A DNA stretch of 56,857 bases, the filler included, from Stramenopiles sp. TOSAG23-2 (lineage: Eukaryota), in assembly GCA_900128395.1 (NCBI GenBank). It is 4 parts of 4 records of this genome, joined end to end, with 100 filler letters (N's around TTAATTAATTAA, not from the genome) between each part and the next. Parts side by side here need not be neighbours in the genome. Positions count along the whole stretch, not along the records: positions 1 to 14,195 come from LT649768.1; 3 more parts are not named here. One strand, written 5' to 3'. Shown here one piece after another: positions 5,214 through 20,200 of the stretch. The notes beneath the pieces were generated by a model. That model made no database searches, was not told where the DNA came from, and saw only the letters and a list, made by a program, of their open reading frames with translations. A program made the position numbers and the translations under genes. Each line of letters starts with the position of its first letter. Within the stretch, counting starts at the first letter, position 1.

Positions 5214-5618
5214 CCTATCTATAGGGGTGCAAAAACCTGGGTCACAGTATTCACCTGCTATATATACAATGGATATAGCATACAAGATAGACATACCATT
5301 GTAAATATTTGATAGATATATTACAGGTATTTAGTATAGCCATAAGTACGAAGTGATTCACGGCAAGAACCAAGAATTGGAATGCAGGAGATTTTCGCAA
5401 CTTTCGTGTTGTAGCCAAAAACCATATATCAATATTTGATAATTTATGTTATAAGCATCAAATTGCGAAAATGGACTGATAAAATTAATGACAGTAGCCA
5501 ATGGTATGTACCTAGTAAATAAATATAATATGATAATACCATTACAATGCTATGTAGTGTATATACCACTATAGCAGGTGAATACTGTGACCCAGGTTTT
5601 TGCCCCCCTATCGATAGG
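5214..5618. mobile_element. MITE-like non-autonomous element with 49-bp inverted arms
   Basis: 5214-5262 is the reverse complement of 5570-5618 with 2 mismatches. Core GGGG(T/G)GCAAAAACCTGGGTCACAGTATTCACCTGCTATA. GGGG..CCCC ends (5224/5608) are flanked by TATCTATA/TATCGATA (possible 8-bp TSD, 1 mismatch) or simply TA. No internal coding capacity. Confidence 0.7.
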
Positions 5619-5819: not shown

Positions 5820-8098
5820 ATGAAAGTACTTACGAGGTGTTTCGTATTGCAATTCTTGCTTAGTATTGCCTATGGAGCACGGCGGTATAAAGGTTTAACT
5901 GATGACTGCAGAGGGAATGATATATCATGGCATAAAGACAAGAATATTGAGGAATGTGAATTGTTGTGCGATGATGTCACTACTTGTGCTGGTTTTACGT
6001 ATGCCCATGGATCTGTAGACGGTAGAGTTGGCGAAAAGGGATGTTGTTTAAAAAGTCAGAGCTGTGGAAATTCTGAAGGTTCTTGTGATCCAAGTAAAAA
6101 ACACTGTTTCTATGTTAAGCACGGAAAATTTGGGTATTTTCTCGGCCCATCTATGAATTTTGACGATGCAAAAAAATGGTGTGAAATTCATGAAATTTCG
6201 ACGTTGGCAATGATTAAAAATGCCGAAAGCCAAAAGAAAGCTGCTGAAGTATGTGATGGTTTTACCTGTTGGATTGGGTTGGTGAAACATGGAGGTAAGA
6301 GTGGTAGTTTGTGGAAGTGGTTAGACGGTGATAACCTTACAAATACATATTCTAACTGGCAATACAGAGAACCAAATGATGTAGATTGGAACTATGCAAC
6401 GATGAATTGTTGTTCTAAGGACGAACAATACAAAGAGCAAAATAAATGGTTCGATGCGCCTGCTAACTATGGAGATGCTCGTCCATTGTGTTTTTCTGGT
6501 GGTGGTTTTAGTAGTGGTTATTGCCCGGCTGCCACTGGTGGCCATATTCTTGGCGCCATTGGATTCGTGCATTGGATTACCTATCATTGGGGTGGCAGTG
6601 CGAGACAGGTACTTGAACCACATGTCGAAATACCTTTGAATCGTAGAAGCCTCTTTCTCGTTGTTCTTACAGTTGTCCTTGCGATATTGCAACTTGCTGG
6701 TGTAAGTGAATGTTACATTTCTCTAAACCTAGTAGATAACCATCTCTAACACACCACTCTTTCAAACGCTGCGCTCCACCACAGGGTGCTTTAATTTTAG
6801 ACAAATGCGATAAAAGTACTACAATAAAATCTGATATTGATTTAGGTATTACATATACTGTTTTTGGATGTTTAGGAGTTGTGTTTGCAACCATTGCACT
6901 AGATAAACTATGTAAGACAAAACCACGTCCACCTATTGATGTAAAAGAAGTAAATGGTGTAAATCATGTAGATTTAGAGTTACAACCACAACCAACAATC
7001 GCAAACACTGATATTTTAGTAGGCATAACGCCACAAAATAACATTGAATTGGAGCAAAAAAGGCGTGAATATTTTAAAAGGAGTGACCATATTCCATGTC
7101 CACAATGCCAACCACCTTTTTCTTCTTCTATGACTGCTTCGGTGGCACCGGATGCACCTGGAAATAAATTAACTGGCCAAGAAGATGATTTGTGTTGGAT
7201 GTGCTTAGGAACTGGCAAAACCAGCAAACATATTGCAGAATTATCCCCACCTCCAGAAAGTGGATTGGATTGTTTAATATGCTACGATAAAGCTGATTAT
7301 GGTTTATCAGACGTTTGTACACATTTTTTTTGTACAACTTGTATACGGCGTAGCTTAGAAACATGTTTAGATGCTGGTGAAATACCAATGTATTGCCCTG
7401 CGTGTAAAGCTACACATGAGAAAAAAAAAAGTGCTGCTGCTAAAATCGGCCGTATTGAAACGCCAACCTTAACGTTTTTAGCAAGGCGTAATGTTATTTC
7501 TAGAGATTTACAATTTCGTATTATGATGGCTGAACGTAAAAAACGAAATGCAAGTGAACAAGGCAAAGAATTTTTTCCATGCCCAGGAAAATGTGGTAAT
7601 TATTTAATTCATGAAGACCCACAGGCTGGTATGAAAGTACAGGAAGGTAAAAATGGGTATAAAATGGTATCATTTACCAAACCTGGTCGTTGTAAATGCG
7701 GTGTCTTATGTTGTGTTAAATGCCATATACAATTAACAGAAAAAAGTATGCTTACGCATGATTGTGATAAAATGAAAGCAAATGCAGAAATGGACAAAGC
7801 CAGTTTAGCTATTTTACAAAAAAATGCCAAAGCTTGTCCAAATTGCGGAGCATGGGTTCAAAAAACAGGTGGGTGCGATACAATGATGTGTGGAACGCAT
7901 TCACATGGATCTATCGTAACTGCAATCCGAAACGGTGGGTGTGGCCATCAATTTGCATGGTCCAGTCTGCAACCATGCAGTACATTTTACACAGGAATTT
8001 ACGGCGAACGTAGGAGTGGGAAAATTTCAAAGGAATACAGATTAAAAGCTATGGAATATGTGTTTGGAAAAAAAGCCGTTGCGTTGAAGCAAAGCTAA
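5820..8098 (+). CDS. Spliced gene join(5820..6701,6785..8098), 731 aa: signal peptide + PAN/apple-like domain + C-type lectin (EPN) + ~3 TM + RBR (RING1-IBR-RING2) E3 ubiquitin ligase
   Basis: Phase-0 intron joins the two ORF-track frames exactly (..LQLAG|GALILDKC..GCLGVVFATIAL). CTL motifs: MNFDDAKKWC, LAMIKNAE, CWIGL, WKWLDG, YSNWQYREPND, WFD. RING1 CLICYD..CTHFFCTTC..CPAC; IBR PCPGKCG..CKCGVLCCVKCH..HDC; RING2 CPNCGAWVQKTGGCDTMMCG..CGHQFAW. Confidence 0.85.
6702..6784 (+). other. Spliceosomal GT-AG intron (83 bp, phase 0)
   Basis: GTAAGT donor at 6702, CTAAC branch point 6746-6750, CAG acceptor ending 6784; removal restores the frame and removes the stop at 6747-6749. Confidence 0.9.
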
Positions 8099-8399
8099 AA
8101 AAGGTAATTTACCGCTCTTCGTAATACAATTTGAAAATAAGTGAGATTGGTTAAAATCTAAGTGTCATAATATCGTAATATTATTTTTTTAAAACTACCG
8201 CGGCTTTTTGCCACAACCGTGCACTTCTAGATCTTTATCTGGGTAGTTACCGGTTGTTGTTCACAACAGGATCTTTCACTTTTCAACCTTTCATGATTTT
8301 CACCATTTCGAAATGAAAAATCCATAATCATAATAACAAGGAATTATACGAATTTAAATTTAGGTCAAAAATGTTGAAACGATGAAATTTTAATGAAAA

Positions 8400-8587
8400 T
8401 TTCCCTGAAGCAACGTGAACACTGTGTCTGTATTTTATTTCATTTATAAAAATCTTGTAAATAAAACTACCAGGTAATTACTATTGAAAAATGAGTTGGC
8501 TTTCCCTGAACACTGTCTGTATTTTATTTTAATTTCATTTATAAAAATCTTGTAAATAAAACTAATTACTATTGAAAAATGAGTTGT
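8400..8587. repeat. Imperfect direct tandem duplication (~100 bp unit) in intergenic DNA
   Basis: TTTCCCTGAA..CACTGT(GT)CTGTATTTTATTT..ATAAAAATCTTGTAAATAAAACTA..ATTACTATTGAAAAATGAGTTG occurs at ~8400-8498 and ~8501-8587; the second copy has small indels. Confidence 0.85.
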
Positions 8588-9073
8588 GCTAGTGCCTCAC
8601 ACAAGGACTATAATATTTCTATAGTCATCTATATATAGCCATCAATCATACTATATAGACTACGAAATGATGCACACAAATGCAACAAAAATACGCGAAG
8701 GTTCAACAACAACAACAAATTTTTTATAAAAAAATAGATATATTGATGCATTACGTGGCCATAGGCATTGGAAGACTGTATATTTACATACATAGTCTAC
8801 ATTAGATACCTGTACGAAAAGCTATAATCCATACATTTACATTTAATTATTAGATAATTTTCATCGAGATAAAGTATATATATTCGTGTGGTGCAACAAT
8901 AACAACAATATAGAAAAGAAAACTCCATACATCACAATACAAACTTAAAAATTATCCAATTATATATCGATAATATAAAGATATTCTATATTATACACAC
9001 AATTTTGCTTATTATATATATATATATCCAACCTCCTTGGTATACCACAAAGTAAAAGAGAATATAGATAAAG

Positions 9074-12000
9074 ATGAGCCGTGCAAATATCAACCCATTG
9101 CAGAAAGAAGGGAAAAAAATAGAGCGAAAATCATTAAGTAATGGAAGTCTTCAGAAATCCAATAGTGACCTTCATAAATTATCTAGACGTTCTTGGCAAA
9201 AAGTAGAAATAGATGAAAGTGGAAAAATACAAGTATCAAAACCGAACAAGAGACATAAGAAGACAGCTGCGACGATGAGGAAACATAGTACTTCTTTCCA
9301 AACTCTTTTACATGGTACAAAAGACATGGAGACAATCAAGTTGAAAATATCTATAGGTGGTACAGAACAAGAACAATTTAATGTGACAGATTCAGAAACA
9401 ATTGAACCTATATCTATTCGAGTACCTCGAGAAATATTTGATGAAGACAAAACACATTATCAACAAATAACAACGAATAATAATAACAACAACAACAGTA
9501 ATACGACAGCAACAACAAAAACTACTAAACTAGGGAAGAAAAGTAGGAATGAAATATTATGGCGAATATATGATGATCCATATTATCAAAATGCGGCATT
9601 TGATACTCTATTGGCAGAGTCAGCAACTGGAGTTGAAAATTTTGAACTACTTGAAACACGTGATGCTAAAGGGGAAAAAATTATTGAAGTGAAAAAACGA
9701 ACAATAAAAATTACTAGAGAAACGAAAGAGGTATTCTTAGTATTTATTCTTTGTTCGCTTGTTTTTGGATCATGGATAATATATACAATTACAACCCCAG
9801 TGAAGGATCAAACAAAGTTTAATAAATGCAATTTAGCAATGCCTAATTGGTTTCAACCATTATTTTCTAACCCTGATAAAGATCATATAATACAATTAAA
9901 ATGTAATCAAGTGATGTACCTTTTTCATAACATATATGTTTCAATCGGTTTTTATACAGGATTTTTGTTTCTTGCTGGTTTGAGAGAATTATATGGACAT
10001 AAATGCAATGGGAAAAGAAGACGATTGTATTTAAATGCTAGCCAAAAAAGTATAAATACTAGAATAGATTGTATATTAGTTATCCTTGGTATCATACAAT
10101 TAATATTATATGGTAATCATGTTGATAATTCAAATCTTTATTTGAAAAATACGAAACTTGAGCACTGGGAATTTATTGTTCAATTTGTTATTGATTGTAT
10201 ATTTGGTCTCATATTTGTATACCAATTTTATATGGCAAAATACATGAACGTAAGGTATATTTCTTACATGTCTCAATTTCCAAACATCATTGCTGTGCTA
10301 TCAATCACATCATCCATAATACATTTAACGTATTGTCTTGATAATTTATATGAGGAAACCGGGCCGTACTCTTTGTCATTTTTAAGAACATATTATTACA
10401 GTGTGTCCTTTAAACGTTTATTGAATGATAAAACTATTCGGCACAGATTGTACTTGGATTCGGATATAATTAAACAATTAATACAAGCAAGTTGGAATAT
10501 AATAGAATTCGTAATAGTAATGGCTGGGATGATCCAAATGTTAGAAGGGATTGATCAGGAAGAAAGTTATTTTGAATCTATTGGTGTTAGTATGTACTTC
10601 ATATTTGTAACTATGAGTACTGTGGGTTACGGTGATATTTTACCACTCACGTTTACTGGGCGATTATTTACTATATTCTTAATTTTTGCGGGGATTATTA
10701 AATTCGCTATAGAAACTAAAACGTTGCAGGATATATATGAGAAAGATAATAAAGGGCAAGGCAGTGCGCCAATTAGTTTTGCACATTGCAAACGGGCGCT
10801 TTTGGTAGGTGATATTAGCAGCGAATCACTGAGGCATTTCCTTACTAATTTTTTCCACCCGTCCATTAAAAGCAGTGCTGCTTATCGCGTGATTGTAATG
10901 GTAGAGCCAATTTATTACAGCAAAAGTGATCATGATTTTTTGCGCCAGCATCCATTATATAAATATCATGTTGTTTATTTAGTTGGGAATGTAACGAAGG
11001 ATGAAGATCTGGAACGATGTATGTTAGATATTTTTACACCCGTATTTATTGTCTCTGATCCGTCACAAGATATAGCTGATTCTGGCAATGTTGTTCGAGT
11101 AATGGCAATCCAAAAATATAGAAAACAGAGGGGAAATATATTTGCAGTTGTTCAACAAAAATCTTCCATTAATCATTTAAAAGTTGCTGGGCTAAGTCCA
11201 TGGTCTGCAGCTGCGTTAGATGATACAAAAATGGAATTATTAGCAAAAAGCGTTGTATGCCCTGGTATCATTCCATTAGTGTTTAATTTATTATTGCCTA
11301 CGTCTGGTAATATTTCAGAAGCCGAAACGCAAGAATCACTTTTAGGGATCGAAGGTATTGAGGATGCAGATAATTTTTTCGTGGCAACTGATTCTAACGA
11401 TGGTGATCTTCAAGGAGATGAAGATATTGGGTTAGTAGCATGGGAAAAAGAATATATATACGGTTTAGAGCAAGATATGATGCAAATTGATGTTCCTAAT
11501 ATGGTGGAAGGCATTGAATTCTTTAAAGCGGTTATCATGTTGCGAAAAGAAACATCCGGACATTTATGTTTAATTGGATTATTTGATACAGAAAAGCAAC
11601 GTCATGTATTTGTTCCAAGCCACCAAACTACTAATATTGAAAAACATAAGCATAAATGTTTAATAATAGTTCGTGAAAAAAGTTGTTTAAAGAAACTGTA
11701 TCAAGATGACGAAAATGTAAATAATGCAAACTACATCACAAGTTTGATTTCAAAGCAACATTCTCATTATTGCTCTGTTTCTAGAAAATTAGATCAACAA
11801 GAAAGTAATAACGTAAATAGAGCAAGACAAAGGGGTAGTAGTAATTTCGATACGATAGATTACAAAGAGTCAGCTGTAAATTTACTAGAAAAAGAAATAG
11901 AACAAGATGAAAAGAAGATTTATAAAGAAATAACACAAGAGGTCATTCAAGAAATGGTTGAACGCGCGGTGTCATCGATTATAAAGGCAGGACTTGATTG

Positions 12001-13624
12001 GACAGAGCGATTATTTGTCGATGTAGGAGCATCGTCAGGTGGTAAATATAGTTCATTAAGTCATACAGCTAGTAATTTATTTAAATTGCGAGATCCAACA
12101 CCACCTCATATTCCAGAGACAGGGTTGAAAGATCATGTTATTATTATTGGTGAAAATTTTGATCCATCTAGTTTCAAAGCGTTTGTTGCAAATCTTCAAT
12201 CAAAAAAACAAAAAGCCAAACGTAAAGTGAAAGATATTGTTATTTTGAGCAGATTTGAGCAACGTAAATCGTTATGGAGGCTAATTTTAATACATTATAA
12301 AAATGTTTATTATGTACAAGGTGATTTTACCCAGCCGCAAGATCTATTGCGTGCTGGTGTCATGACTGCATCAAATGTATTTCTACTGGCAGATCCATCT
12401 GAAAATGAAGATGGTCCAATAACAGATTCAAATGCTGCAAACGATGCTGTGCATTTAGACAAAGCGAGAATATTTTCTACACTGATGCTTGAAGGTGCGT
12501 TAAAAGCATTAGGTAATGACCGGTTAGAAATCGGCATTATAACAGAATTCATGGATTTACAAAATTTAAATTATATGTTGACAAAGGCAAGGTACGATGT
12601 ATGGCCAAGGTATGCTAGTGGTCGCATTTATCCTGCATCTACATTAATCTCTTTATTATCTCAAGCATATTATCAACCACATATTTTTGGAATTTTAAAT
12701 TCATTGATATCCGTTGAAGATGGATTTTCAAAGCAAAGTCCTGGCACAATAGTACAAACAGACATCCCAAGTTCATTTTTCATTAATAGAATTGCTACGA
12801 TGGAAGAAAAAGATTACGATGCAGATTTTTTATATAATGATTTATTTGAATACATTGTTAATGAATTTAAATGTTTACCAATCGGATTATATCGTGGTAG
12901 TAAATTGAATGCAGCTGGACATCGTGTATCGAACGAATCAAGTACTGCATACTTGCCTTATACATATACAAATCCTGTATACAATTGTCCATTACATGTA
13001 GAAAATCATGTTTTGCATAAAAATTTAGATTTATCAAAATTTAATTTAAAGATTGAAGAGGATCAGGTTGAATTTTCTGGGCATATTCCATTGATTGAGG
13101 AATCATTCTCAGTCAATGATTTAGTAGAATTAGATTTTTACAACCATAACACTAAAACACGTACGAAACATATTTATTCGATACGTAAAGTTAGAAAAAC
13201 AATGATGGATGTTATTACAAGTCATAATAATAATAATAGCAACAGCGACATGGAAAATGAAAGTAAAGATTCTCCTATGAAAACAATTTTATATACAAAA
13301 TTTAAAAGTGGTGATATCCAAAAGTATAATGCTGGCAATGTGACCATTTCTAGATTATGTTACTTTGATCGGTTATTTATAATGGGACGTAGCTCTGCTT
13401 TGCAAAAATTATATTACGATGAATCTGGTTCTGATACTAAATTTATACAAAAAATTGCTGCCATTAAACGTATCCAATTACATAGGAAAAAACTAAAAGC
13501 AAAACGGGCAAGTATTATATTGATGGCAGAAAAAAAAGAGAAGGAAATACTTGCAAAAAAGGGGAAAATAACAACAACAAAGAGTAAAGCACTTATACAT
13601 AAATCGCATTCTAGTGTGAAGTGA
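9074..13624 (+). CDS. Slo/BK-family (RCK-domain) potassium channel alpha subunit, 1516 aa
   Basis: Pore signature YFIFVTMSTVGYGDILP, upstream TM helices, RCK1 (ALLVGDI..FLTNFFHP..YLVGNVTKDEDLER), LLAKSVVCPGIIPLVFNLL, RCK2 (DHVIIIG..VYYVQGD..DLLRAGV), PRYASGRIY..LLSQAYY, LPIGLYR. Confidence 0.9.
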   Translation: MSRANINPLQKEGKKIERKSLSNGSLQKSNSDLHKLSRRSWQKVEIDESGKIQVSKPNKRHKKTAATMRKHSTSFQTLLHGTKDMETIKLKISIGGTEQEQFNVTDSETIEPISIRVPREIFDEDKTHYQQITTNNNNNNNSNTTATTKTTKLGKKSRNEILWRIYDDPYYQNAAFDTLLAESATGVENFELLETRDAKGEKIIEVKKRTIKITRETKEVFLVFILCSLVFGSWIIYTITTPVKDQTKFNKCNLAMPNWFQPLFSNPDKDHIIQLKCNQVMYLFHNIYVSIGFYTGFLFLAGLRELYGHKCNGKRRRLYLNASQKSINTRIDCILVILGIIQLILYGNHVDNSNLYLKNTKLEHWEFIVQFVIDCIFGLIFVYQFYMAKYMNVRYISYMSQFPNIIAVLSITSSIIHLTYCLDNLYEETGPYSLSFLRTYYYSVSFKRLLNDKTIRHRLYLDSDIIKQLIQASWNIIEFVIVMAGMIQMLEGIDQEESYFESIGVSMYFIFVTMSTVGYGDILPLTFTGRLFTIFLIFAGIIKFAIETKTLQDIYEKDNKGQGSAPISFAHCKRALLVGDISSESLRHFLTNFFHPSIKSSAAYRVIVMVEPIYYSKSDHDFLRQHPLYKYHVVYLVGNVTKDEDLERCMLDIFTPVFIVSDPSQDIADSGNVVRVMAIQKYRKQRGNIFAVVQQKSSINHLKVAGLSPWSAAALDDTKMELLAKSVVCPGIIPLVFNLLLPTSGNISEAETQESLLGIEGIEDADNFFVATDSNDGDLQGDEDIGLVAWEKEYIYGLEQDMMQIDVPNMVEGIEFFKAVIMLRKETSGHLCLIGLFDTEKQRHVFVPSHQTTNIEKHKHKCLIIVREKSCLKKLYQDDENVNNANYITSLISKQHSHYCSVSRKLDQQESNNVNRARQRGSSNFDTIDYKESAVNLLEKEIEQDEKKIYKEITQEVIQEMVERAVSSIIKAGLDWTERLFVDVGASSGGKYSSLSHTASNLFKLRDPTPPHIPETGLKDHVIIIGENFDPSSFKAFVANLQSKKQKAKRKVKDIVILSRFEQRKSLWRLILIHYKNVYYVQGDFTQPQDLLRAGVMTASNVFLLADPSENEDGPITDSNAANDAVHLDKARIFSTLMLEGALKALGNDRLEIGIITEFMDLQNLNYMLTKARYDVWPRYASGRIYPASTLISLLSQAYYQPHIFGILNSLISVEDGFSKQSPGTIVQTDIPSSFFINRIATMEEKDYDADFLYNDLFEYIVNEFKCLPIGLYRGSKLNAAGHRVSNESSTAYLPYTYTNPVYNCPLHVENHVLHKNLDLSKFNLKIEEDQVEFSGHIPLIEESFSVNDLVELDFYNHNTKTRTKHIYSIRKVRKTMMDVITSHNNNNSNSDMENESKDSPMKTILYTKFKSGDIQKYNAGNVTISRLCYFDRLFIMGRSSALQKLYYDESGSDTKFIQKIAAIKRIQLHRKKLKAKRASIILMAEKKEKEILAKKGKITTTKSKALIHKSHSSVK

Positions 13625-14195: not shown

Positions 14196-14295
14196 NNNNN
14201 NNNNNNNNNNNNNNNNNNNNNNNNNNNNNNNNNNNNNNNTTAATTAATTAANNNNNNNNNNNNNNNNNNNNNNNNNNNNNNNNNNNNNNNNNNNN
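14196..14295. other. Artificial contig-joining linker (44N-TTAATTAATTAA-44N)
   Basis: Exactly 100 bp; the central 12-mer gives stops in all six frames; identical to the other two linkers. Confidence 0.98.
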
Positions 14296-14296
14296 A

Positions 14297-17200
14297 GAAT
14301 GGATAGCACTATTTTGGGAATATGTTCATACAAAATTAAATTCAAATTTAAAATTATTTGAAAATGGCTGTCCATTGGTTCCTACAGTTGACCATAAACT
14401 TTACACTATAAAACGCGCATTACCTATCTTAATTTTGGATTCTTCCACCACATCATCTAATGACGAAGTCAATGTAGACAATAAGGATAGCCCTTCAAAA
14501 GATAGCAAGGGAGACGAAGCCGATGCATACGTAAATAACACTGGAGACGAAGACACGAGTTCAGGCAATGCCAGGCAAACGAAACAAGAGAAGGAAAAGG
14601 AAGAACAGGTAATAAACGTATTGAAAGACATAGGTGTCACGTGCATTGATTTAAGTCTCAGTGGTGGAGCAGATGCTACAAGGCGCCTTGCACCTAGATA
14701 TATACAAGAACCAAAGCGAAAAGGTATTCTTGAAGTAATAAATAGTGTTGTTGCAATTAGAAATAGTAAATATTCTGATGTATTTAATCATGTTGATTCA
14801 ACTGGACGAAATATTTTGAGAATTTTTTTAGCAAGTGAAGATGTTGATAAATTGTCAATGCGTGAATGTAAAATTATAAGTCGATTGCCTATTTATGAGA
14901 CGTATGAAAAAAACTCAAATAGTGACAATAGAAACGTATCTACATACAAATCATTGACTCGGAATAACAGATACTTGAACGCCAAAGTGTTAGACATACA
15001 CGAAGATGCTATACCTTCTAATTTTTTGAAAACGAAATCGTCTACGGAATTGCAGCTCCTAAGAAAATTAGGTGTTCCATCGGTTGATGAGGTGACATTC
15101 TGCGTTGAACATTTATTCTCCAATATCAATTCGCTTGAAAGTGGGCCACGTAATGAGACAATGCTTAGCATACTTGTCAACTTTGCTCGTATTTGTAACG
15201 AGTCAAAAGAATTTGCTGTTATTTTACGTGACATTCCATTTGTTCCCGATGTAGAAGGAGAGTTGCACAAACCTAGTGAACTGTACGACATTGAAATACC
15301 TGAATTAAGACTACTATTGAAAGATGAACAGCACGTTTTTCCTTGTGAAATGTTTGCTGCACCGATGGTACTATCTTCTCTACGAAAATTAGGTTTGCGG
15401 GATGTATTGTCACGTACAACAATTTTAGAATGCGCTTCTTCAATATCACTAATTGATAAATTAGATGTTGAATCTATCCGTAAAAGGGCTACTTGTTTAT
15501 TGCGATATGTAGACGGGCACAGCAAAGACTTATTTACTGTTCCAAAACGCAGCTTGTTATCAACGTTGACGATGAAAAGTGATTCCCCATCAAAAAATGC
15601 TGCTGGTCAGATAGAAAGATTTTCACAAGAATTAATGGGCATTTCATGGGTACCTGTCATAACAAGTAACCCTAATGAAAATTTGCCATGGCGAGACGGT
15701 GGTGTTGGAAAGTTGGAAACGCGGCTACCGCGTGAAGTAAGACCAGAAAGTGAAATGTGGCTTTGCTCATACTCCTTAGGAATATTGCGCGGTAATATCC
15801 AGTCTCTCTATCTTAAACAATTTTTCGGATGGGACAAGACGATTGATCCACGTATTGTTGCAATGCAATTAGTAGTTTTAGGCCAATCTTACATACCAAG
15901 TGAACAACTTAGTCGAGAACTATCGATACAAGTACCAAAATTGTATAAATCACTCTCCAATAGTTGCGCTGCAAACCCTAATGCAATACAAAATATAAAA
16001 CAAATTTTAAGTGGCACTAAATGGGTGTGGTGCGGCGATTCATTTGTTGCGGATGAAGATGTTGCATTTCTAACTCCAGTGAATGCCAAACCTCATCTTT
16101 ACAAAGTGCCTAGAGACATGGCAATTGGTTTTGGAAATTTATTTAAAAATCTAGGAGTCAGAGAAGAGTTTGGATTCGCTGATTTTGCAAATGCATTGTC
16201 AAGAATGCATTTGAAATACAAAGATAAACCTTTGGAAAAGTTGGATGTCGACATTGCTGTATCTCTTGTGCAAGAACTTAGTAACACACCCATAAAGGCG
16301 GCTAATTTTGAAATATTTGCACCGAACGAAGATAATGTCATGATGCCAACCAGAGCAATGGTGTATGATGATGCTCCATGGTTGTCAAAGCGTGCTATTG
16401 CCACAAGTAGTGGTAACAATACTCAGTTTATCCACCCTAAAATATCAAACGAAGTTGCAAAAAATGTAGAAGCAAAATCCTTCCGCTCTACTTTAATTGC
16501 AAATGAGACAGAAGATTTACTAGATGATTTTGATGCTACCTCATTCGGACAAGTAGAGCCGTTGACAGGACGATTAAATCATATTCTTCAATTGTATCCG
16601 GAAGGCCCAGGTATTATTAATGAATTAATTCAAAATGCCGATGATGCTCGTGCTACAGAATTTTCTGTCATGCTTAACTTAGAAGAGTATGGGAAAAATT
16701 CATTGCTTGGGCCAAAAATGTCAAAATGGCAAGGACCAGCGCTTTATGTGTATAATAATGCAACATTTAGCAATCAAGATTTTGCAAATCTAGTCAAAAT
16801 TGGCCAAGCCAGTAAGCTTGAAAAACTAAGTACGACAGGCCGTTTTGGATTAGGTTTTAATTCTGTTTATCATTTTACAGATTTACCGTCTTTTGTTACT
16901 GGTGACCATGTAGTGATGTTTGACCCACATACAGACTATATTCCTCGTGCTACACATCAACAACCTGGCTTAAAATTGAAGTTTTCTAAAAGTAAAATTA
17001 TGGATCAATTTCCTGATCAATTCACACCGTATTTATTTTTTGGAAATGATATGCGCAATTATTATAACGGTACATTGTTTCGATTTCCGTTGCGGTCAGT
17101 AGGTAATGCAAGTTTAATCAAGACCCAACCATACACAGTAAGTGATGTAAACAGTTTGATAGAACAATTTAAACAAAATATTGTTCATTCAATGGTTTTT

Positions 17201-20200
17201 CTTAGGCATATAAAGAAAATTTCTGTTTATGTAAATGATGGCTCTACAAATGTTGGAGAAAAAAAGAGTGTTAAGGATGGAGTGAAAAAAGAAGATGGAA
17301 GTAACAATGTTAATTTAAATAAACCGCGATTATTATATCAAGCATTCGTATCAAAACGCGACGATGAGAAGTGGTCAAGCATCTCAAATTTTTTAAAAAC
17401 GGCGACTTCTAAAGCATCAATGTATGCAAAACTTCTCCGCACACCAGAGTCGGAGTTGCCAAGCTTAACACAGCAAGTTGAAATTAAGAGTCAGTATATG
17501 AATGTGCATAATAAAAGTAGTACTGAGCAACTCGACACATATTTAATTGTGCAACGCCTAGGTGGAGGTAATGCTAGGAAAATAGCTTGCTCAAAAGAAC
17601 TGTCGCATATGAAATTAGTACCTTGGGGAGGAGTCGCTGCACATTTGAATACAGAGACAAAGCGTGTTGGTAAAGCATTTTGTTTCTTGCCATTGCCCGC
17701 AGAAACTGGATTGCCGATACACGTCCATGGGTACTTTGAATTATCTTCTAATAGGCGCAACATATGGTTCGGAGATGATATGGCTGGCGAGGGGGCAATC
17801 AAAGCAAAGTGGAATGTAGCGTTGTTGCAGGATGTCGTGTCGCCGTGTTATAAGCAATTATTGCTAGCAGCAAGGGACATAAATATATTATTTTCCAGCA
17901 ACGACAATACCACCGAAGGTACATCGCAAATGGGCTATTACAGTCTTTTCCCTCGGAAAATGCCTAGTGGCCCATGGGAAGTGTTAACAAAAGCATTTTT
18001 TGAAACCATTCAAAATTCACCATTGCTATATTCGTTGATGGACAATGGCCAATGGATTGCACCAAGGCAAGCATATTTAGTGGAAAAGGGATTATTTCCC
18101 AGTAAGACTGAGGCAAAACTAATTAAGTTATTGCTGCAAGAGAACATTCCGATTGTTGATCTGAAAGATGATGAAGTCACAAAACTTTTACTTGAATACA
18201 AATGTGTCCAGCAACAATTGTCACCAAAAGAAATTCGAGCACATTTTAAAAGAAGGCAAAAGCATCCAATTTTAAATAATCGTTACGACGCCATGTTTAT
18301 TCTTGATATTTGCTTACAAGATTTGCAAAATAAGGACAAAGATGGTGACTATTCGGATTTAATTGGTTTGCCATTACTTCCATTAGCAGATGGCTCACTT
18401 TCTGTTTTCAAAGGCGCAAATTCCAATTCTTCTGTATTTGTATGTTCTAGATGGAATGAAACAAGGTTATTGGAGCCTGCCAGTGACAAACTAGTAGATC
18501 CGAAAGTTATTGGGGAAAGTGATGAAAAAAAACCAGTTGATACAGCATTTCACTTAATTGCAAAAGCATTGCGACCATATTATACACCCGAAATCGAACA
18601 AGAGACAAATTTAAAGCAATTGACCCCGGATGCATTTGCATTTCTACTTTCTTACATCCTTCCAATGGAATGGAAAGGAAAGCAAGAAGTGCTATGGGTA
18701 CCTGGTGATTCTTTTTCTCAAAAAAAACAAGTTCGAGGAAATAATAATGTTGATAAAGCCGCATTTATAAGTGAATTATGGATGACTCGATTATGGCGAT
18801 TCCTTAACGAATGCTCCGAAAATGGTATTTACAGCGATGATGAAATGGAGTGTTTTATCAATGAATGGCCTTTATTGCCAACAAAGCAACCAAAAGCAAG
18901 AACATTGATGAGTTTAAAGGAAAATATGGCTGTAATCAATCCCAACGGCCTCAGTCCGACGCTTTGTAATCTGTTTGCTAGGATTGGAGTTAGAGCAGTT
19001 GATACGCGTATATTGCCGAGTCCACCAGAGCGTTTTGTACAATCTGCAAAGCCAAGTGGCTGCCTGAAAGTAATTTATCATAGTGTACAAGGTGAGTTAT
19101 CAATGTTGCCAGACAGATTTTTAATTTTATCTCCTCTTGCATTGCAAGAGTTGCGTGAGTATTTAGGCACATTTAAATGGAAAAGATACCGCGAAAATAA
19201 AAAGAGGAGAGAGCAAGGTGAAGACGATACGGAGGAATTAAATTATTTAGATATCATGCGGGCATTGCCAATTTACGAAGTTTATGGCAATGCAAATAAC
19301 ATTAATTCTAAGATGAGCCAAGAGCAATGCTTTCAAGCTCTCTCCGACGAGCATTATCTTGTACCGGAGTATTTAAAAATCTTTGAAAAAATATTGAATT
19401 CTAGATTCTTAGTTACGCATACAAGTAGAGATAAGACTTTATTGTTAAGTTTAGGTGTAGAAGAACGCGATATACCAACCAGTGTGATTGCGGAACAGCT
19501 GGTTCACATGGGGCGAAAGAAAAGAGATGAAATAGATGCAGAATTGGAGCGTACTTTGAATAACAACATTGTTGATCTGTACCTAAAGCTTGCTAATCTC
19601 GCTGCTGAATCCCCAGAAGAGTTGGAGACTTTGAAAAATATTTTACAAGATGCTGCTTGGATATGGATAAATGGCAAGTTTATGAAAGCTGAATCAGTTG
19701 CGTTTCGGTGCCCACAAAATGCAGCCCCGTTTTTATACGAAGTTCCAGCATACGTTAAAGCAGATGGAAATATCAGTAATTTATGGTCTGCATTAGGTGT
19801 TCGAGCTGAATTTGCTGCCTCCGATTTTGTGGTTGCATTGCAAAAGTTACGGACTTTTGTCGGAGAGAATCCAATGGAAAAAGGACAACTTGATTTTGCT
19901 GTTGCGTTACTTCAAATGTTAGCTGAAAATGATCTTGAGACAAGAAAAGAAGTTGCTAAAACACAAGGTGTATTGTTTGTACCAGATGAAGATTCAGTGT
20001 TGCGCCCATCAGGCATGGTTGTATACAACGATGCGGAATGGTTAAAAATTTCAAATGCTCGATATAAATTATGTCACAGCAATATTAGTGATACTGTTGC
20101 TTCTAAGGTTGGAATCCGTTCATTGCGCTCGTTAGAGTTAGAAACAAGGAAAGATATGAAAGAATTTAGCTGCCCTGGTGCATCTAGTATCAATATACAC

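What the first reader, a model, noticed from the sequence alone, without database searches (positions are those of the whole stretch)
5820..8098. Lectin receptor-ubiquitin ligase: PAN + EPN-type C-type lectin ectodomain fused through the membrane to a cytosolic RBR E3 ligase
Seen: an 83-bp canonical intron (GTAAGT..CTAAC..CAG, 6702-6784) fuses two separately listed ORFs into one 731-aa protein: signal peptide, PAN/apple-like Cys domain, C-type lectin with EPN (6369-6377), three hydrophobic segments, an extra CPQC..CWMCLGTG zinc-binding-like motif, then RING1-IBR-RING2. Established: EPN marks mannose/GlcNAc/fucose-type Ca2+-dependent lectins. Membrane RBRs (RNF144, RNF19, RNF217) have no N-terminal ligand-binding ectodomain, and receptor-type E3s with ectodomains (PA-TM-RING such as RNF43/ZNRF3/GRAIL) use a simple RING. 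Inference: a signal peptide plus an odd TM number places the lectin outside or luminal and the ligase in the cytosol, giving a one-chain glycan-sensing to ubiquitination receptor (prey/pathogen recognition, phagosome or glycoprotein sorting). I do not know this architecture from characterised proteins.
Basis: partly seen in the sequence, partly recalled or inferred. Interest (0 to 1): 0.85.

Follow-up and report, generated by a model that had tools for sequence, protein, structure and literature searches.

The report
Lectin-domain membrane receptor fused to RBR ligase
A marine protist gene, confirmed as spliced in RNA, joins an outward-facing PAN plus C-type-lectin-like domain through a conserved three-helix membrane module to an unusual RBR-type ubiquitin ligase, a combination not found described, though its sugar-binding site looks incomplete.

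Summary
ORFs 5820-6701 and 6785-8098 are joined by an 83-nt GT..AG intron. RNA contigs from two studies skip exactly 6702-6784, giving a 731-aa protein.

The PAN and C-type-lectin-like folds are supported by PDB sequence hits, a Pfam-passing homologue and Foldseek. The C-terminal half is a divergent RBR: its family profile hits ARIH1 at E=4.6e-9, with the Cys at 7874-7876 aligned to the catalytic Cys.

A second protein, P0160 (796 aa, one continuous ORF), has the same CTLD / three-segment membrane module / zinc knuckle / RBR order.

- Only two segments are clearly hydrophobic. The first is marginal, so the odd TM count is inferred, not shown.
- EPN is present, but two of the five canonical Ca2+/sugar ligands are replaced (W190, F211).
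- The RBR lacks the His two residues after the catalytic Cys.
- A public unannotated gene model of this gene exists (P0178), with an intron that RNA contradicts.

Verdict: a real, expressed, receptor-type RBR ligase. It is a new variant of known kinds. Ligand, topology and activity are untested.

The parts
5820..5876 (+). Signal-peptide-like N-terminus (res 1-19, ...SIAYG|ARR)
   Evidence: Hydrophobic N-terminal stretch (KD 1.31). AF2 helix 4-17. Small residues at -3/-1 read from the sequence. No SignalP was available, so cleavage is inferred.
5904..6092 (+). PAN/apple-like domain (res ~29-91)
   Evidence: Pfam PAN_4 E=3.3e-5, 24.3 bits, below the cut-off of 27. PDB factor XI / prekallikrein apple domains E~0.004-0.007 over res 23-84. 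Homologue P0009 (49% id) passes PAN_4 at 29.8 bits. AF2 strand-helix-strand-strand at 35-79, pLDDT 77-86.
6099..6497 (+). C-type lectin-like domain (res ~94-226)
   Evidence: phmmer vs PDB: ASGPR2 8urf E=3e-6, CLEC10A, langerin, MBP-A. The family profile hits single CRDs down to E=4.6e-22. AF2 pLDDT 84-96. Foldseek MBP-A 1kwz E=5.4e-7, prob 1.00, TM(target) 0.66-0.86. No Pfam Lectin_C hit at E<=1 for the window itself.
6369..6377 (+). EPN tripeptide (E184-P185-N186)
   Evidence: Aligned to the QPD of ASGPR2. The downstream family Glu is W190 and the WND position reads W210-F211-D212.
6540..6590 (+). Membrane-module segment A (res 241-257), His/Trp/Gly-rich, marginally hydrophobic
   Evidence: KD ~1.0. 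AF2 helix 240-256, low confidence. The motif H.LG..G..HW.T[FY]H is found in 8 of 8 module-bearing sequences.
6651..6701 (+). Membrane-module segment B, exon-1 part (res 278-294)
   Evidence: KD 2.58. AF2 helix 275-292.
6702..6784 (+). 83-nt spliceosomal intron, GT..AG
   Evidence: Skipped in RNA contigs of X1 and X2 (tables 5 and 8). An X3 contig starts at 6785, and its loose end matches the end of exon 1.
6785..6799 (+). Segment B, exon-2 part (res 295-299), followed by the conserved D-K-C
6845..6901 (+). Membrane-module segment C (res 315-333)
   Evidence: KD 1.91. DLGITY..FG is conserved in 7 of 7 sequences that reach it.
7097..7216 (+). Four-Cys zinc knuckle CPQC...CWMCLGTG (C399, C402, C431, C434)
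   Evidence: The four Cys and two Gly are >=90% conserved in 14 family sequences. The likeness to DnaJ CxxCxGxG repeats is recalled, not tested.
7271..7405 (+). RING1, C3HC4 (C457...C501)
   Evidence: Pfam zf-RING_2/zf-C3HC4 are sub-threshold. Aligned to ARIH1 RING1 in the profile search. Ligands are >=90% conserved.
7580..7765 (+). IBR (C560...H619, C621)
   Evidence: Profile alignment to the ARIH1 IBR. Invariant Cys/His. Pfam IBR is sub-threshold in the homologues P0007 and P0202.
7835..7960 (+). Rcat/RING2-like domain (C645, C648, C658, C663, H668, C680, H682)
   Evidence: The first half aligns to ARIH1, parkin and HOIL-1 Rcat. The second half (GGCGHQF.W) has no aligned counterpart there.
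7874..7876 (+). Putative catalytic Cys658 (TGC)
   Evidence: Aligned with the Cys of GGCNHM in ARIH1. Invariant. One RNA contig shows a synonymous C>T at 7876.
8096..8098 (+). Stop codon TAA
   Evidence: An RNA contig runs on to 8165.

Best explanation
This is one expressed, spliced gene of an AT-rich, intron-poor marine protist. It encodes a 731-aa multi-pass membrane protein.

Its parts, in order:
- a signal-peptide-like N-terminus;
- a PAN/apple domain and a C-type-lectin-like domain facing the outside or an organelle lumen;
- a conserved three-helix membrane module: a His/Trp-rich helix A and two strongly hydrophobic helices B and C;
- a cytosolic four-Cys zinc knuckle;
- a divergent RING1-IBR-Rcat (RBR) ligase with active-site Cys658.

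The most likely working: the ectodomain binds a ligand, whose nature is open and which is probably not bound by a canonical Ca2+-mannose site. This brings or holds the cytosolic RBR next to membrane substrates or itself. The RBR then takes ubiquitin from an E2 onto Cys658 and passes it on, marking the receptor or its neighbours for endocytic, phagosomal or degradative sorting.

Shown: the gene structure, its transcription, the folds, and conservation of the module order in a second protein. Inferred: signal-peptide cleavage, the three-pass topology, ligase activity, ligand, location and the downstream effect.
For: Splice: the junction 6701/6785 is present in RNA contigs of 2 of the 4 runs laid, from two studies. 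A third run has a contig starting at 6785 with loose letters that match the end of exon 1.

Domains:
- CTLD and apple hits in PDB.
- P0009 passes Pfam Lectin_C (46.1 bits) and PAN_4 (29.8 bits).
- The AF2 model of exon 1 has CTLD pLDDT 84-96, and Foldseek gives prob 1.00 to MBP-A, mannose receptor CRD4 and langerin.
- The RBR family profile hits ARIH1 at E=4.6e-9 (8 sequences) and 1.3e-6 (14 sequences). It also hits ARIH2, parkin and HOIL-1. RING1, IBR and the catalytic-Cys region are aligned.

Same order in another protein: P0160 is a continuous 796-aa ORF in a cluster of 36 members. It is 75% identical over res 235-729 and 59% over the CTLD.

Membrane module:
- It is shared with CTLD proteins that carry other tails, acidic or poly-Pro, which look cytosolic.
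- A Cys before helix A and D(K/H)C after helix B occur in 8 of 8 sequences.
- The B-C loop is net negative in 6 of 7.
- The stretch after C is net positive in 3 of 7 and neutral in 4.

Other RBR-family members:
- Six of the seven longer ones with no CTLD (P0199-P0203, P0205) start MGC, MGAC or MGIIC; P0204 starts MGALES, with no Cys, and P0198 starts MYCSC. I read MG-Cys as acylation-type N-termini from recall.
- P0004 has one KD-1.42 stretch C-terminal to the RBR, which I read as a possible anchor.
- Both fit a ligase that works on the cytosolic face of membranes.
Against: - Helix A is only marginally hydrophobic. KD is about 1.0 in the window and below 0.8 in P0160, P0158, P0161 and P0127. 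A summed biological-hydrophobicity value of about +7 comes from scale values I recalled. Plain hydropathy therefore gives two TM helices, which would put the RBR on the ectodomain side.
- The membrane region is low confidence in both AF2 models.
- The RBR lacks the His at +2 from the catalytic Cys (T660; family T/Y/I/V/F). A review calls the Cys-His-Glu/Gln triad necessary in vitro in parkin, HHARI and HOIP (PMC3940038, passage read).
- After C663/H668 only C680 and H682 are conserved, so the second zinc site of Rcat is not canonical.
- Pfam thresholds are not reached for PAN, RING or IBR, and Lectin_C is not hit at all in the window's protein.
- Ca2+ site 2 keeps 3 of 5 canonical ligands.
- No binding, activity or localisation data exist.
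Confidence: 0.6

Rival explanations
1. Same chain and topology, but the ectodomain is a true Ca2+-dependent mannose/GlcNAc/fucose lectin. The protein would then be a glycan sensor for prey or pathogen surfaces.
For: EPN sits at the canonical place, aligned to the QPD of ASGPR2. The best Foldseek matches are mannose-type CRDs. Related proteins keep EPN plus the Glu, and the P0158 group keeps a full EPN...ED...WND set.
Against: In the window the family Glu is W190 and WND reads WFD, so 3 of 5 ligands remain. The same residues are seen in the near-identical P0159, so this is not a sequencing error. The usual second disulfide pair is replaced by a different Cys pattern (C145, C150, C197, C198). 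Foldseek matches reflect the fold, not the binding site.
Confidence: 0.25
2. A luminal quality-control or sorting ligase. The PAN+CTLD part faces the ER, Golgi or endolysosomal lumen and picks out glycoproteins. The cytosolic RBR then ubiquitinates them or their carriers. This would be a one-chain analogue of lectin-plus-E3 ERAD complexes.
For: The topology argument is the same as for the best explanation. A review notes that luminal lectins OS-9/XTP3-B deliver substrates to the membrane E3 HRD1 (PMC4021871, passage read), so the logic has a precedent.
Against: I saw no ER-retention signal at the C-terminus (...KKAVALKQS). Relatives of the ectodomain are single-pass or three-pass proteins with long, low-complexity tails that look typical of surface receptors. 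Nothing here tests location.
Confidence: 0.2
3. The RBR-like part is not a Cys-relay ligase. It could act as a plain RING-type E3 through RING1, as a scaffold, or on non-lysine or non-protein acceptors.
For: The +2 His is absent, the second half of Rcat is atypical, and the profile alignment to ARIH1 stops right after the catalytic-Cys motif. All Pfam RING/IBR hits in the window's protein and in P0160 are sub-threshold.
Against: Cys658 and the surrounding K...GGC..M.CG motif are invariant in 14 sequences down to 35% identity. This argues for a conserved catalytic role. The whole RING1-IBR-Rcat order is kept.
Confidence: 0.15
4. Two-pass topology. Segment A is a juxtamembrane helix outside the bilayer and only B and C span it, so the RBR lies on the same side as the lectin domain.
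For: The hydropathy of A is below usual TM thresholds in the window and in 4 of the 5 module homologues scanned that contain it.
Against: An RBR needs cytosolic E1, E2 and ATP, and its many zinc-binding Cys would not suit an oxidising compartment (established knowledge). The tails of sister proteins (poly-Pro, acidic coil) look cytosolic. Loop charges and the conserved Cys pair fit three passes. Both AF2 models draw A as a helix, 17 aa in the window and 24 aa in P0160.
Confidence: 0.05

Closest known systems
Ariadne-type RBR ligases (ARIH1/HHARI, ARIH2), parkin, HOIL-1
   Same: RING1-IBR-Rcat order. C3HC4 RING1. IBR Cys/His pattern. Catalytic Cys in a GGC..M.C context, aligned by profile (ARIH1 E=4.6e-9).
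   Different: No His at +2 from the catalytic Cys. The second half of Rcat (GGCGHQF.W) is not alignable. There is an extra four-Cys knuckle before RING1, no Ariadne, UBL or RING0 domains, and an N-terminal ectodomain with a membrane module.
Human membrane RBRs RNF19A/B, RNF144A/B, RNF217
   Same: RBR ligases with hydrophobic membrane segments (PMC4021871, passage read).
   Different: From recall, their hydrophobic segments lie C-terminal to the RBR and they have no signal peptide or folded ectodomain. Here the membrane module and ectodomain are N-terminal.
PA-TM-RING receptor-type E3s (GRAIL/RNF128, RNF13, RNF43/ZNRF3 by recall)
   Same: Signal peptide, extracellular or luminal binding domain, membrane span, cytosolic E3. 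The ectodomain selects the substrate (PMC4021871).
   Different: Those use a PA or other domain, a single TM and a simple RING. This protein uses PAN+CTLD, a three-helix module and an RBR.
Animal type C-lectin receptors (ASGPR, langerin, mannose receptor CRD4, MBP-A)
   Same: CTLD fold. EPN at the sugar-specificity position.
   Different: Two of the five Ca2+-site ligands are replaced. The Cys pattern differs. The domain is N-terminal with a signal peptide and is coupled to an enzyme in the same chain.
Protist CTLD + three-helix-module proteins found here (P0158, P0161-P0163, P0127) and P0160
   Same: The same membrane module (helix A His triad, AGG.L..D(K/H)C, DLGITY). P0160 also shares the zinc knuckle and RBR.
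   Different: P0158-type and P0127 carry non-enzymatic tails. P0160 lacks PAN and has a Cys-rich insert after its CTLD.

Membership tests
RBR (RING-between-RING) E3 ligases | N-terminal canonical RING1 with eight Cys/His ligands | tested here: met
   C457-x2-C-x11-C-x-H-x2-C-x2-C-x17-C-x2-C read. Ligands are >=90% conserved. Aligned to ARIH1 RING1. Pfam RING hits are sub-threshold.
RBR (RING-between-RING) E3 ligases | IBR domain between the two RING-like domains | tested here: met
   C560/C564...C597/C599/C604/C607...H619/C621. The profile aligns to the ARIH1 IBR. Pfam IBR is only sub-threshold in the homologues P0007 (19.9 bits) and P0202 (20.6 bits), against a cut-off of 24.3.
RBR (RING-between-RING) E3 ligases | Rcat/RING2 with an active-site Cys | tested here: met
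   Cys658 aligns with the Cys of GGCNHM in ARIH1. It is invariant in 14 sequences.
RBR (RING-between-RING) E3 ligases | His two residues after the catalytic Cys (the Cys-His-Glu/Gln triad of parkin, HHARI and HOIP; PMC3940038, passage read) | tested here: not met
   T660 in the window. T/Y/I/V/F in the family.
RBR (RING-between-RING) E3 ligases | Canonical second zinc site in Rcat | tested here: inconclusive
   Only C680 and H682 are conserved there. C692 is not conserved. No coordinates or metal analysis were available.
RBR (RING-between-RING) E3 ligases | Ubiquitin thioester on the Rcat Cys, loaded from an E2 | not testable with these tools
   Needs a biochemical assay.
C-type lectin-like domain (fold) | CTLD fold with WIGL-type core and a C1-C4 disulfide pair | tested here: met
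   PDB E=3e-6. Foldseek prob 1.00. CWIGL, C121 and C224 are present. The Pfam Lectin_C model itself gives no hit at E<=1. The homologues P0009 and P0160 pass it.
Ca2+-dependent carbohydrate-recognition CTLD (mannose type) | EPN motif | tested here: met
   E184-P185-N186.
Ca2+-dependent carbohydrate-recognition CTLD (mannose type) | Glu before strand beta-3, and Asn-Asp of WND (the remaining Ca2+ site-2 ligands; list recalled from MBP-A) | tested here: not met
   W190 sits at the family Glu column. WND reads W210-F211-D212, so only the Asp is kept. The placement rests on a MAFFT alignment and AF2 strand positions, not on superposed coordinates.
PAN/apple domain | Pfam PAN_4/PAN_1 above the gathering score | tested here: not met
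   24.3 bits against 27, and 15.8 against 21.4. However, P0009 passes at 29.8 bits, the near-identical P0159 carries a precomputed PF14295 hit, and factor XI apple domains are hit in PDB.
PA-TM-RING receptor E3s | PA ectodomain, single TM, RING-H2 | tested here: not met
   No PA hit in Pfam. There are three segments rather than one, and an RBR rather than a single RING.
RNF144/RNF19/RNF217-type membrane RBRs | Membrane segment(s) C-terminal to the RBR, no ectodomain (recalled) | tested here: not met
   All hydrophobic segments lie N-terminal to the RBR. The C-terminus after Rcat is hydrophilic.

The most novel reading that the evidence does not exclude
PAN/CTLD ectodomains joined to the His-triad three-helix module define a so far undescribed protist receptor chassis. 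Its membrane module would itself transmit a signal, through ligand-, pH- or metal-dependent rearrangement of helix A. In this gene and in P0160 it would switch a cytosolic RBR on across the membrane. That would be the first receptor-type RBR ligase, with ubiquitination as the direct output of extracellular recognition.
Probability: 0.3. Interest if true: 0.8.

Novelty: new variant of a known kind. Interest (0 to 1): 0.62.

Why it matters
Characterised RBR ligases are controlled from inside the cell, by autoinhibition that is released through phosphorylation, neddylated cullins or ubiquitin-like ligands. A chain that puts a folded extracellular or luminal binding domain in front of an RBR would be a natural case of outside-in control of a Cys-relay E3. 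It would also give marine phagotroph biology a candidate link between surface recognition and membrane sorting.

Three further points follow:
- A divergent RBR clade escapes Pfam thresholds, so searches by domain architecture would miss it.
- A conserved three-helix membrane module with three invariant His has no family assignment.
- The existing public gene model of this gene deletes one membrane helix. That changes the predicted topology.

Tried and rejected
- Whole-genome search: no genome is held for this window.
- Earlier findings: three look-ups returned nothing.
- Rfam: no match in the window at gathering threshold, and none at E<=1 in 8100-8500.
- ESM Atlas on the membrane module of P0160 (res 295-410): no usable hit.
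- Foldseek with the whole P0160 model: the listed matches (to rank 50) were all CTLDs, so it said nothing about the RBR. The model is low confidence overall (mean pLDDT 53).
- Pfam on the window's protein and on family members: RING and IBR hits only, sub-threshold in the window's protein and P0160. The weak DUF6860 hit over the B-C segments (16.7 bits against 27) was not seen in P0127 or P0122 and was dropped.
- 'Two separate genes': rejected by the spliced contigs and by continuous homologues.
- The public model P0178 (intron 6643-6800): rejected. Both bridging RNA contigs contain 6643-6701 and 6785-6800 and skip 6702-6784.
- Parts of the gene without RNA-contig cover (for example 5976-6257) say nothing either way.
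- The spliced 731-aa protein could not be given to the fold tool, which takes only unjoined sequences, and I did not send it to any other search tool. It was folded as exon 1 alone, and the membrane module as part of P0160.
- No SignalP, DeepTMHMM or coordinate output was available.
- Literature: three searches found no paper joining a C-type lectin or other ectodomain to an RBR. The supplements of the pan-eukaryote ubiquitin survey (PMC4327156; passages read have no 'lectin' or 'transmembrane') are closed. They may hold domain co-occurrence tables that bear on this.
Full report
**1. What is in the sequence**

The window between 5820 and 8098 reads as the first-stage reader described.
- An ATG at 5820 opens a frame that runs to 6749.
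- A second frame is open from 6740 to the TAA at 8096-8098.
- Cutting at 6701|GTAAGT and CAG|6785 removes 83 nt and joins the frames.
- Read that way inside a script, the product is 731 aa with no internal stop.

The surrounding window is about 24-39% G+C in 2-kb windows, mostly 27-38%. It carries long, mostly uninterrupted ORFs for plainly eukaryotic proteins:
- a BK-type K+ channel;
- a 2,912-aa sacsin-like ORF;
- a tubulin-tyrosine-ligase-like protein;
- FAM221;
- a choline-transporter-like protein;
- D123;
- an arginine methyltransferase.

No whole genome is held for the window. I read it as an AT-rich, intron-poor, flagellated marine protist. I did not determine the lineage.

**2. Is the intron real?**

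Yes. Of 24 runs listed for the stretch, 23 hold part of it, and 22 of those are on record as RNA. They come from 11 studies, mostly of seawater or marine metatranscriptomes. I laid four of them.
- X1 (study P1) and X2 (study P2) each have a contig that lies on 6606/6632-6701, continues at 6785 and skips exactly 83 nt with GT..AG ends. Neither contig has a mismatch.
- X3 has a contig that starts at 6785. It is preceded by 16 loose letters that match the end of exon 1 except in the first letter.
- No listed contig covers 6702-6784.

These are assembled contigs from RNA libraries, so they show presence, not level. A join that removes a GT..AG intron can still only come from spliced RNA.

Independent support comes from homologues that are continuous across the junction. 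P0122, P0127 and P0160 read ...AGG(A/S)L..D(K/H)C where the window has ...LAG|GALILDKC.

Other points seen:
- a 6-nt in-frame insertion behind 6517 in two runs, also present in P0159 and P0008;
- a synonymous C>T at 7876 inside the putative catalytic Cys codon.

**3. An existing public model, and why it is wrong**

The cluster look-up returned P0178. It is a 706-aa EukProt gene model, named g9514.t1 by its source. It is identical to my product except that res 275-300 are replaced by a single His.

That corresponds to a predicted intron at 6643-6800 (158 nt). I derived these coordinates by hand from the sequence and the P0178 sequence; the script confirmed the exon-2 start at 6801 but misplaced the donor. 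This intron deletes membrane segment B. Both bridging RNA contigs contain 6643-6701 and 6785-6800, so they contradict it.

The fused gene is therefore already in a public proteome. There it is unannotated, and it has an error that changes the number of membrane segments.

**4. The ectodomain**

Pfam alone is weak for the window's protein. PAN_4 scores 24.3 bits against a cut-off of 27, and Lectin_C gives no hit at E<=1. More sensitive evidence is consistent:
- phmmer against PDB hits C-type lectin domains over res 94-214 (ASGPR2 E=3e-6; CLEC10A, langerin, MBP-A). It hits factor XI and prekallikrein apple domains over res 23-84 (E 0.004-0.007).
- An exhaustive search of 1.84 billion representatives gave 173 hits at E<=1e-3.
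- The best full-domain hit, P0009 (507 aa, 49% identical over res 21-224), passes both Lectin_C (46.1 bits) and PAN_4 (29.8 bits).
- A profile of 32 sequences hits single CRDs down to E=4.6e-22.
- The AF2 model of exon 1 (mean pLDDT 74) has the CTLD at 84-96 and the PAN part at 77-86.
- Foldseek returns MBP-A, mannose receptor CRD4, langerin and mincle with probability 1.00.

So the PAN and CTLD folds are real.

**5. Is it a lectin?**

EPN (E184-P185-N186, 6369-6377) sits where ASGPR2 has QPD.

In the relatives the loop reads EPNN..G.DE..A.MNCC...G.W.DAP. The window has EPND-VDWNYATMNCC, three residues shorter. W190 sits in the column of the conserved Glu. The WND position reads W210-F211-D212.

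Against the five site-2 ligands of mannose-binding protein A (a list I recall, not a tool result), three are kept. The near-identical P0159 has the same residues, so this is not an error. P0008, a 91%-identical fragment, keeps the family version of the loop.

The Cys pattern also departs from the usual second disulfide (C145, C150, C197, C198). I could not superpose coordinates, so the residue equivalences rest on the alignment and on AF2 strand positions.

My reading is that the fold is certain and canonical Ca2+-mannose binding is doubtful. The ligand is open.

**6. The membrane part**

Hydropathy gives two clear segments and one marginal one:

| Segment | Residues | Kyte-Doolittle |
|---|---|---|
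| A | 241-257 | about 1.0 |
| B | 278-299 | 2.58 |
| C | 315-333 | 1.91 |

In P0160, P0158, P0161 and P0127 the equivalent of A stays below 0.8.

The three segments are nevertheless one conserved module. A profile of it found 8 proteins at E<=0.01 among 7,999 scored candidates.
- One is the window's own exon-1 ORF (P0159).
- Five have a whole or truncated CTLD in front and non-enzymatic tails: P0158, P0161, P0162, P0163 and P0127.
- One has another Cys-rich ectodomain (P0122).
- One, P0160, has CTLD, module, zinc knuckle and RBR.

Counting the window's protein in place of P0159, all 8 module-bearing sequences share three features:
- H.LG..G..HW.T[FY]H in helix A, with three invariant His;
- a Cys 6-8 residues before it;
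- D(K/H)C right after B.

The B-C loop is net negative in 6 of 7 sequences. The 15 residues after C are net positive in 3 of 7 and neutral in 4. The A-B loop is net positive in 5 of 8.

The AF2 models draw A as a helix, 17 aa in the window and 24 aa in P0160. In P0160 they draw three long helices (300-323, 334-364, 369-402). Confidence in that region is low in both.

The three-pass topology is therefore an inference. It rests on four points:
- A disulfide-rich CTLD behind a signal peptide must be exoplasmic.
- An RBR, and the poly-Pro or acidic tails of sister proteins, must be cytosolic.
- B and C are certain, so a third pass is needed. A is the only conserved candidate.
- The charges and the Cys pair fit this arrangement.

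I rate that reading at about 5%.

**7. The ligase part**

Exon 2 found only 7 relatives of similar length and 9 longer ones, 16 cluster representatives in all.

A profile of 8 sequences hits ARIH1 at E=4.6e-9, with two aligned stretches. One covers RING1. The other runs from the IBR through the linker to ...CP.C....K.GGC..M.C, which places Cys658 on the catalytic Cys of ARIH1. ARIH2, parkin and HOIL-1 follow. A 14-sequence profile gives ARIH1 at 1.3e-6 and parkin at 2.3e-4.

Across the 14 sequences:
- The RING1 ligands and the four Cys of the upstream knuckle are at least 90% conserved.
- The IBR ligands, C645, C648, C658, C663, H668 and C680 are invariant.
- H682 is at least 90% conserved.

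There are three departures from textbook RBRs:
- The residue two after the catalytic Cys is T/Y/I/V/F, not His. A review states that parkin, HHARI and HOIP show a Cys-His-Glu/Gln triad whose substitution inactivates them in vitro (PMC3940038, passage read).
- The second half of Rcat (GGCGHQF.W) has no aligned counterpart, and only two conserved zinc ligands.
- Pfam's IBR models stay under threshold throughout.

I file it as a divergent member of the RBR superfamily. It probably works as a Cys-relay ligase, with a real chance (about 15%) that it does not.

**8. How common is the fusion?**

Among the 16 RBR-family representatives, only P0160 has a CTLD and the module. P0002, P0003 and P0007 are fragments that start inside the RBR, and P0001 is a fragment of the soluble P0196 type, so those N-termini are unknown or belong elsewhere.

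The seven other longer proteins have no Lectin_C hit.
- P0199 to P0203 and P0205 begin MGC, MGAC or MGIIC.
- P0204 begins MGALES, with no Cys, and P0198 begins MYCSC.
- I read MG-Cys as acylation-type N-termini from recall.
- One of them is named by its source as a hypothetical protein of Amorphochlora amoebiformis.

P0004 has one moderately hydrophobic stretch (KD 1.42) C-terminal to the RBR, which I read as a possible membrane anchor.

The clade thus looks like membrane-face ligases with interchangeable anchors. The lectin-module anchor was seen in two genes.

P0160 is 75% identical to the window's protein over res 235-729 and 59% over the CTLD. It lacks PAN and has a Cys-rich insert. Whether the two are paralogues in one genome I cannot tell.

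**9. Comparison with what is known**

Three full-text searches found no paper that joins a C-type lectin or other folded ectodomain to an RBR.

A review of human transmembrane RING proteins lists five RBRs with hydrophobic regions (RNF19A/B, RNF144A/B, RNF217). It calls PA-TM-RING proteins unique in having an extracellular or luminal domain (PMC4021871, passages read).

A pan-eukaryote survey of ubiquitin domain architectures mentions neither lectin nor transmembrane in its main text (PMC4327156, passages read).

The parts are all known kinds. Their combination, and the three-helix module, are not described as far as these searches reach.

**10. Verdict**

This is a real, expressed receptor-type RBR ligase gene, a new variant of known kinds.

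There are three caveats:
- The odd TM count is inferred.
- The 'lectin' site is incomplete.
- The RBR is atypical.

Interest 0.62.

Noticed in passing
window 8197-8282: In all four RNA runs laid, many short contigs pile up on this ~85-nt stretch just after the gene's 3' end. Summed depth reaches about 550, against 2-7 over the gene. The contigs carry 0-5 mismatches and continue into flanks that differ from the window but resemble each other across runs. This looks like a conserved, highly expressed sequence from other loci or organisms. No Rfam match at E<=1. Single copy in the window. Unexplained.
   Followed up: partly
window 5214-5262 and 5570-5618: A 49-nt inverted repeat, 96% complementary, with 307 nt between the arms. 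It lies about 200 nt upstream of the ATG at 5820. It may be a small foldback or MITE-like element in the promoter region.
   Followed up: partly
window 6643-6800 (public gene model P0178): The EukProt gene model of this gene uses a 158-nt intron that removes membrane segment B (25 aa). RNA contigs support 6702-6784 instead.
   Followed up: yes
window 6517/6518: A 6-nt in-frame insertion (adds Val-Asp before C235) in RNA contigs of two runs and in P0159 and P0008. This is a strain-level length variant in the stalk between the CTLD and helix A.
   Followed up: partly
P0008 (fragment, 91% identical to res 174-294): This near relative keeps the family version of the CTLD loop (EPNN...DEKNAMMNCC), whereas the window has the shorter EPND.VDWNY version. 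The rest is almost identical. The divergence is concentrated in the putative binding loop.
   Followed up: no
P0199-P0205 (RBR-family relatives): Long relatives of the RBR module start with MGC, MGAC or MGIIC. These are N-termini of the myristoylation/palmitoylation type (recalled rule). They suggest lipid anchoring of this ligase clade.
   Followed up: no
window 14252-22990 and 9068-13624: An uninterrupted 2,912-aa ORF with sacsin domains and a 1,518-aa BK-type K+ channel ORF lie just downstream on the same strand. I saw no sign of a functional link to the finding.
   Followed up: no
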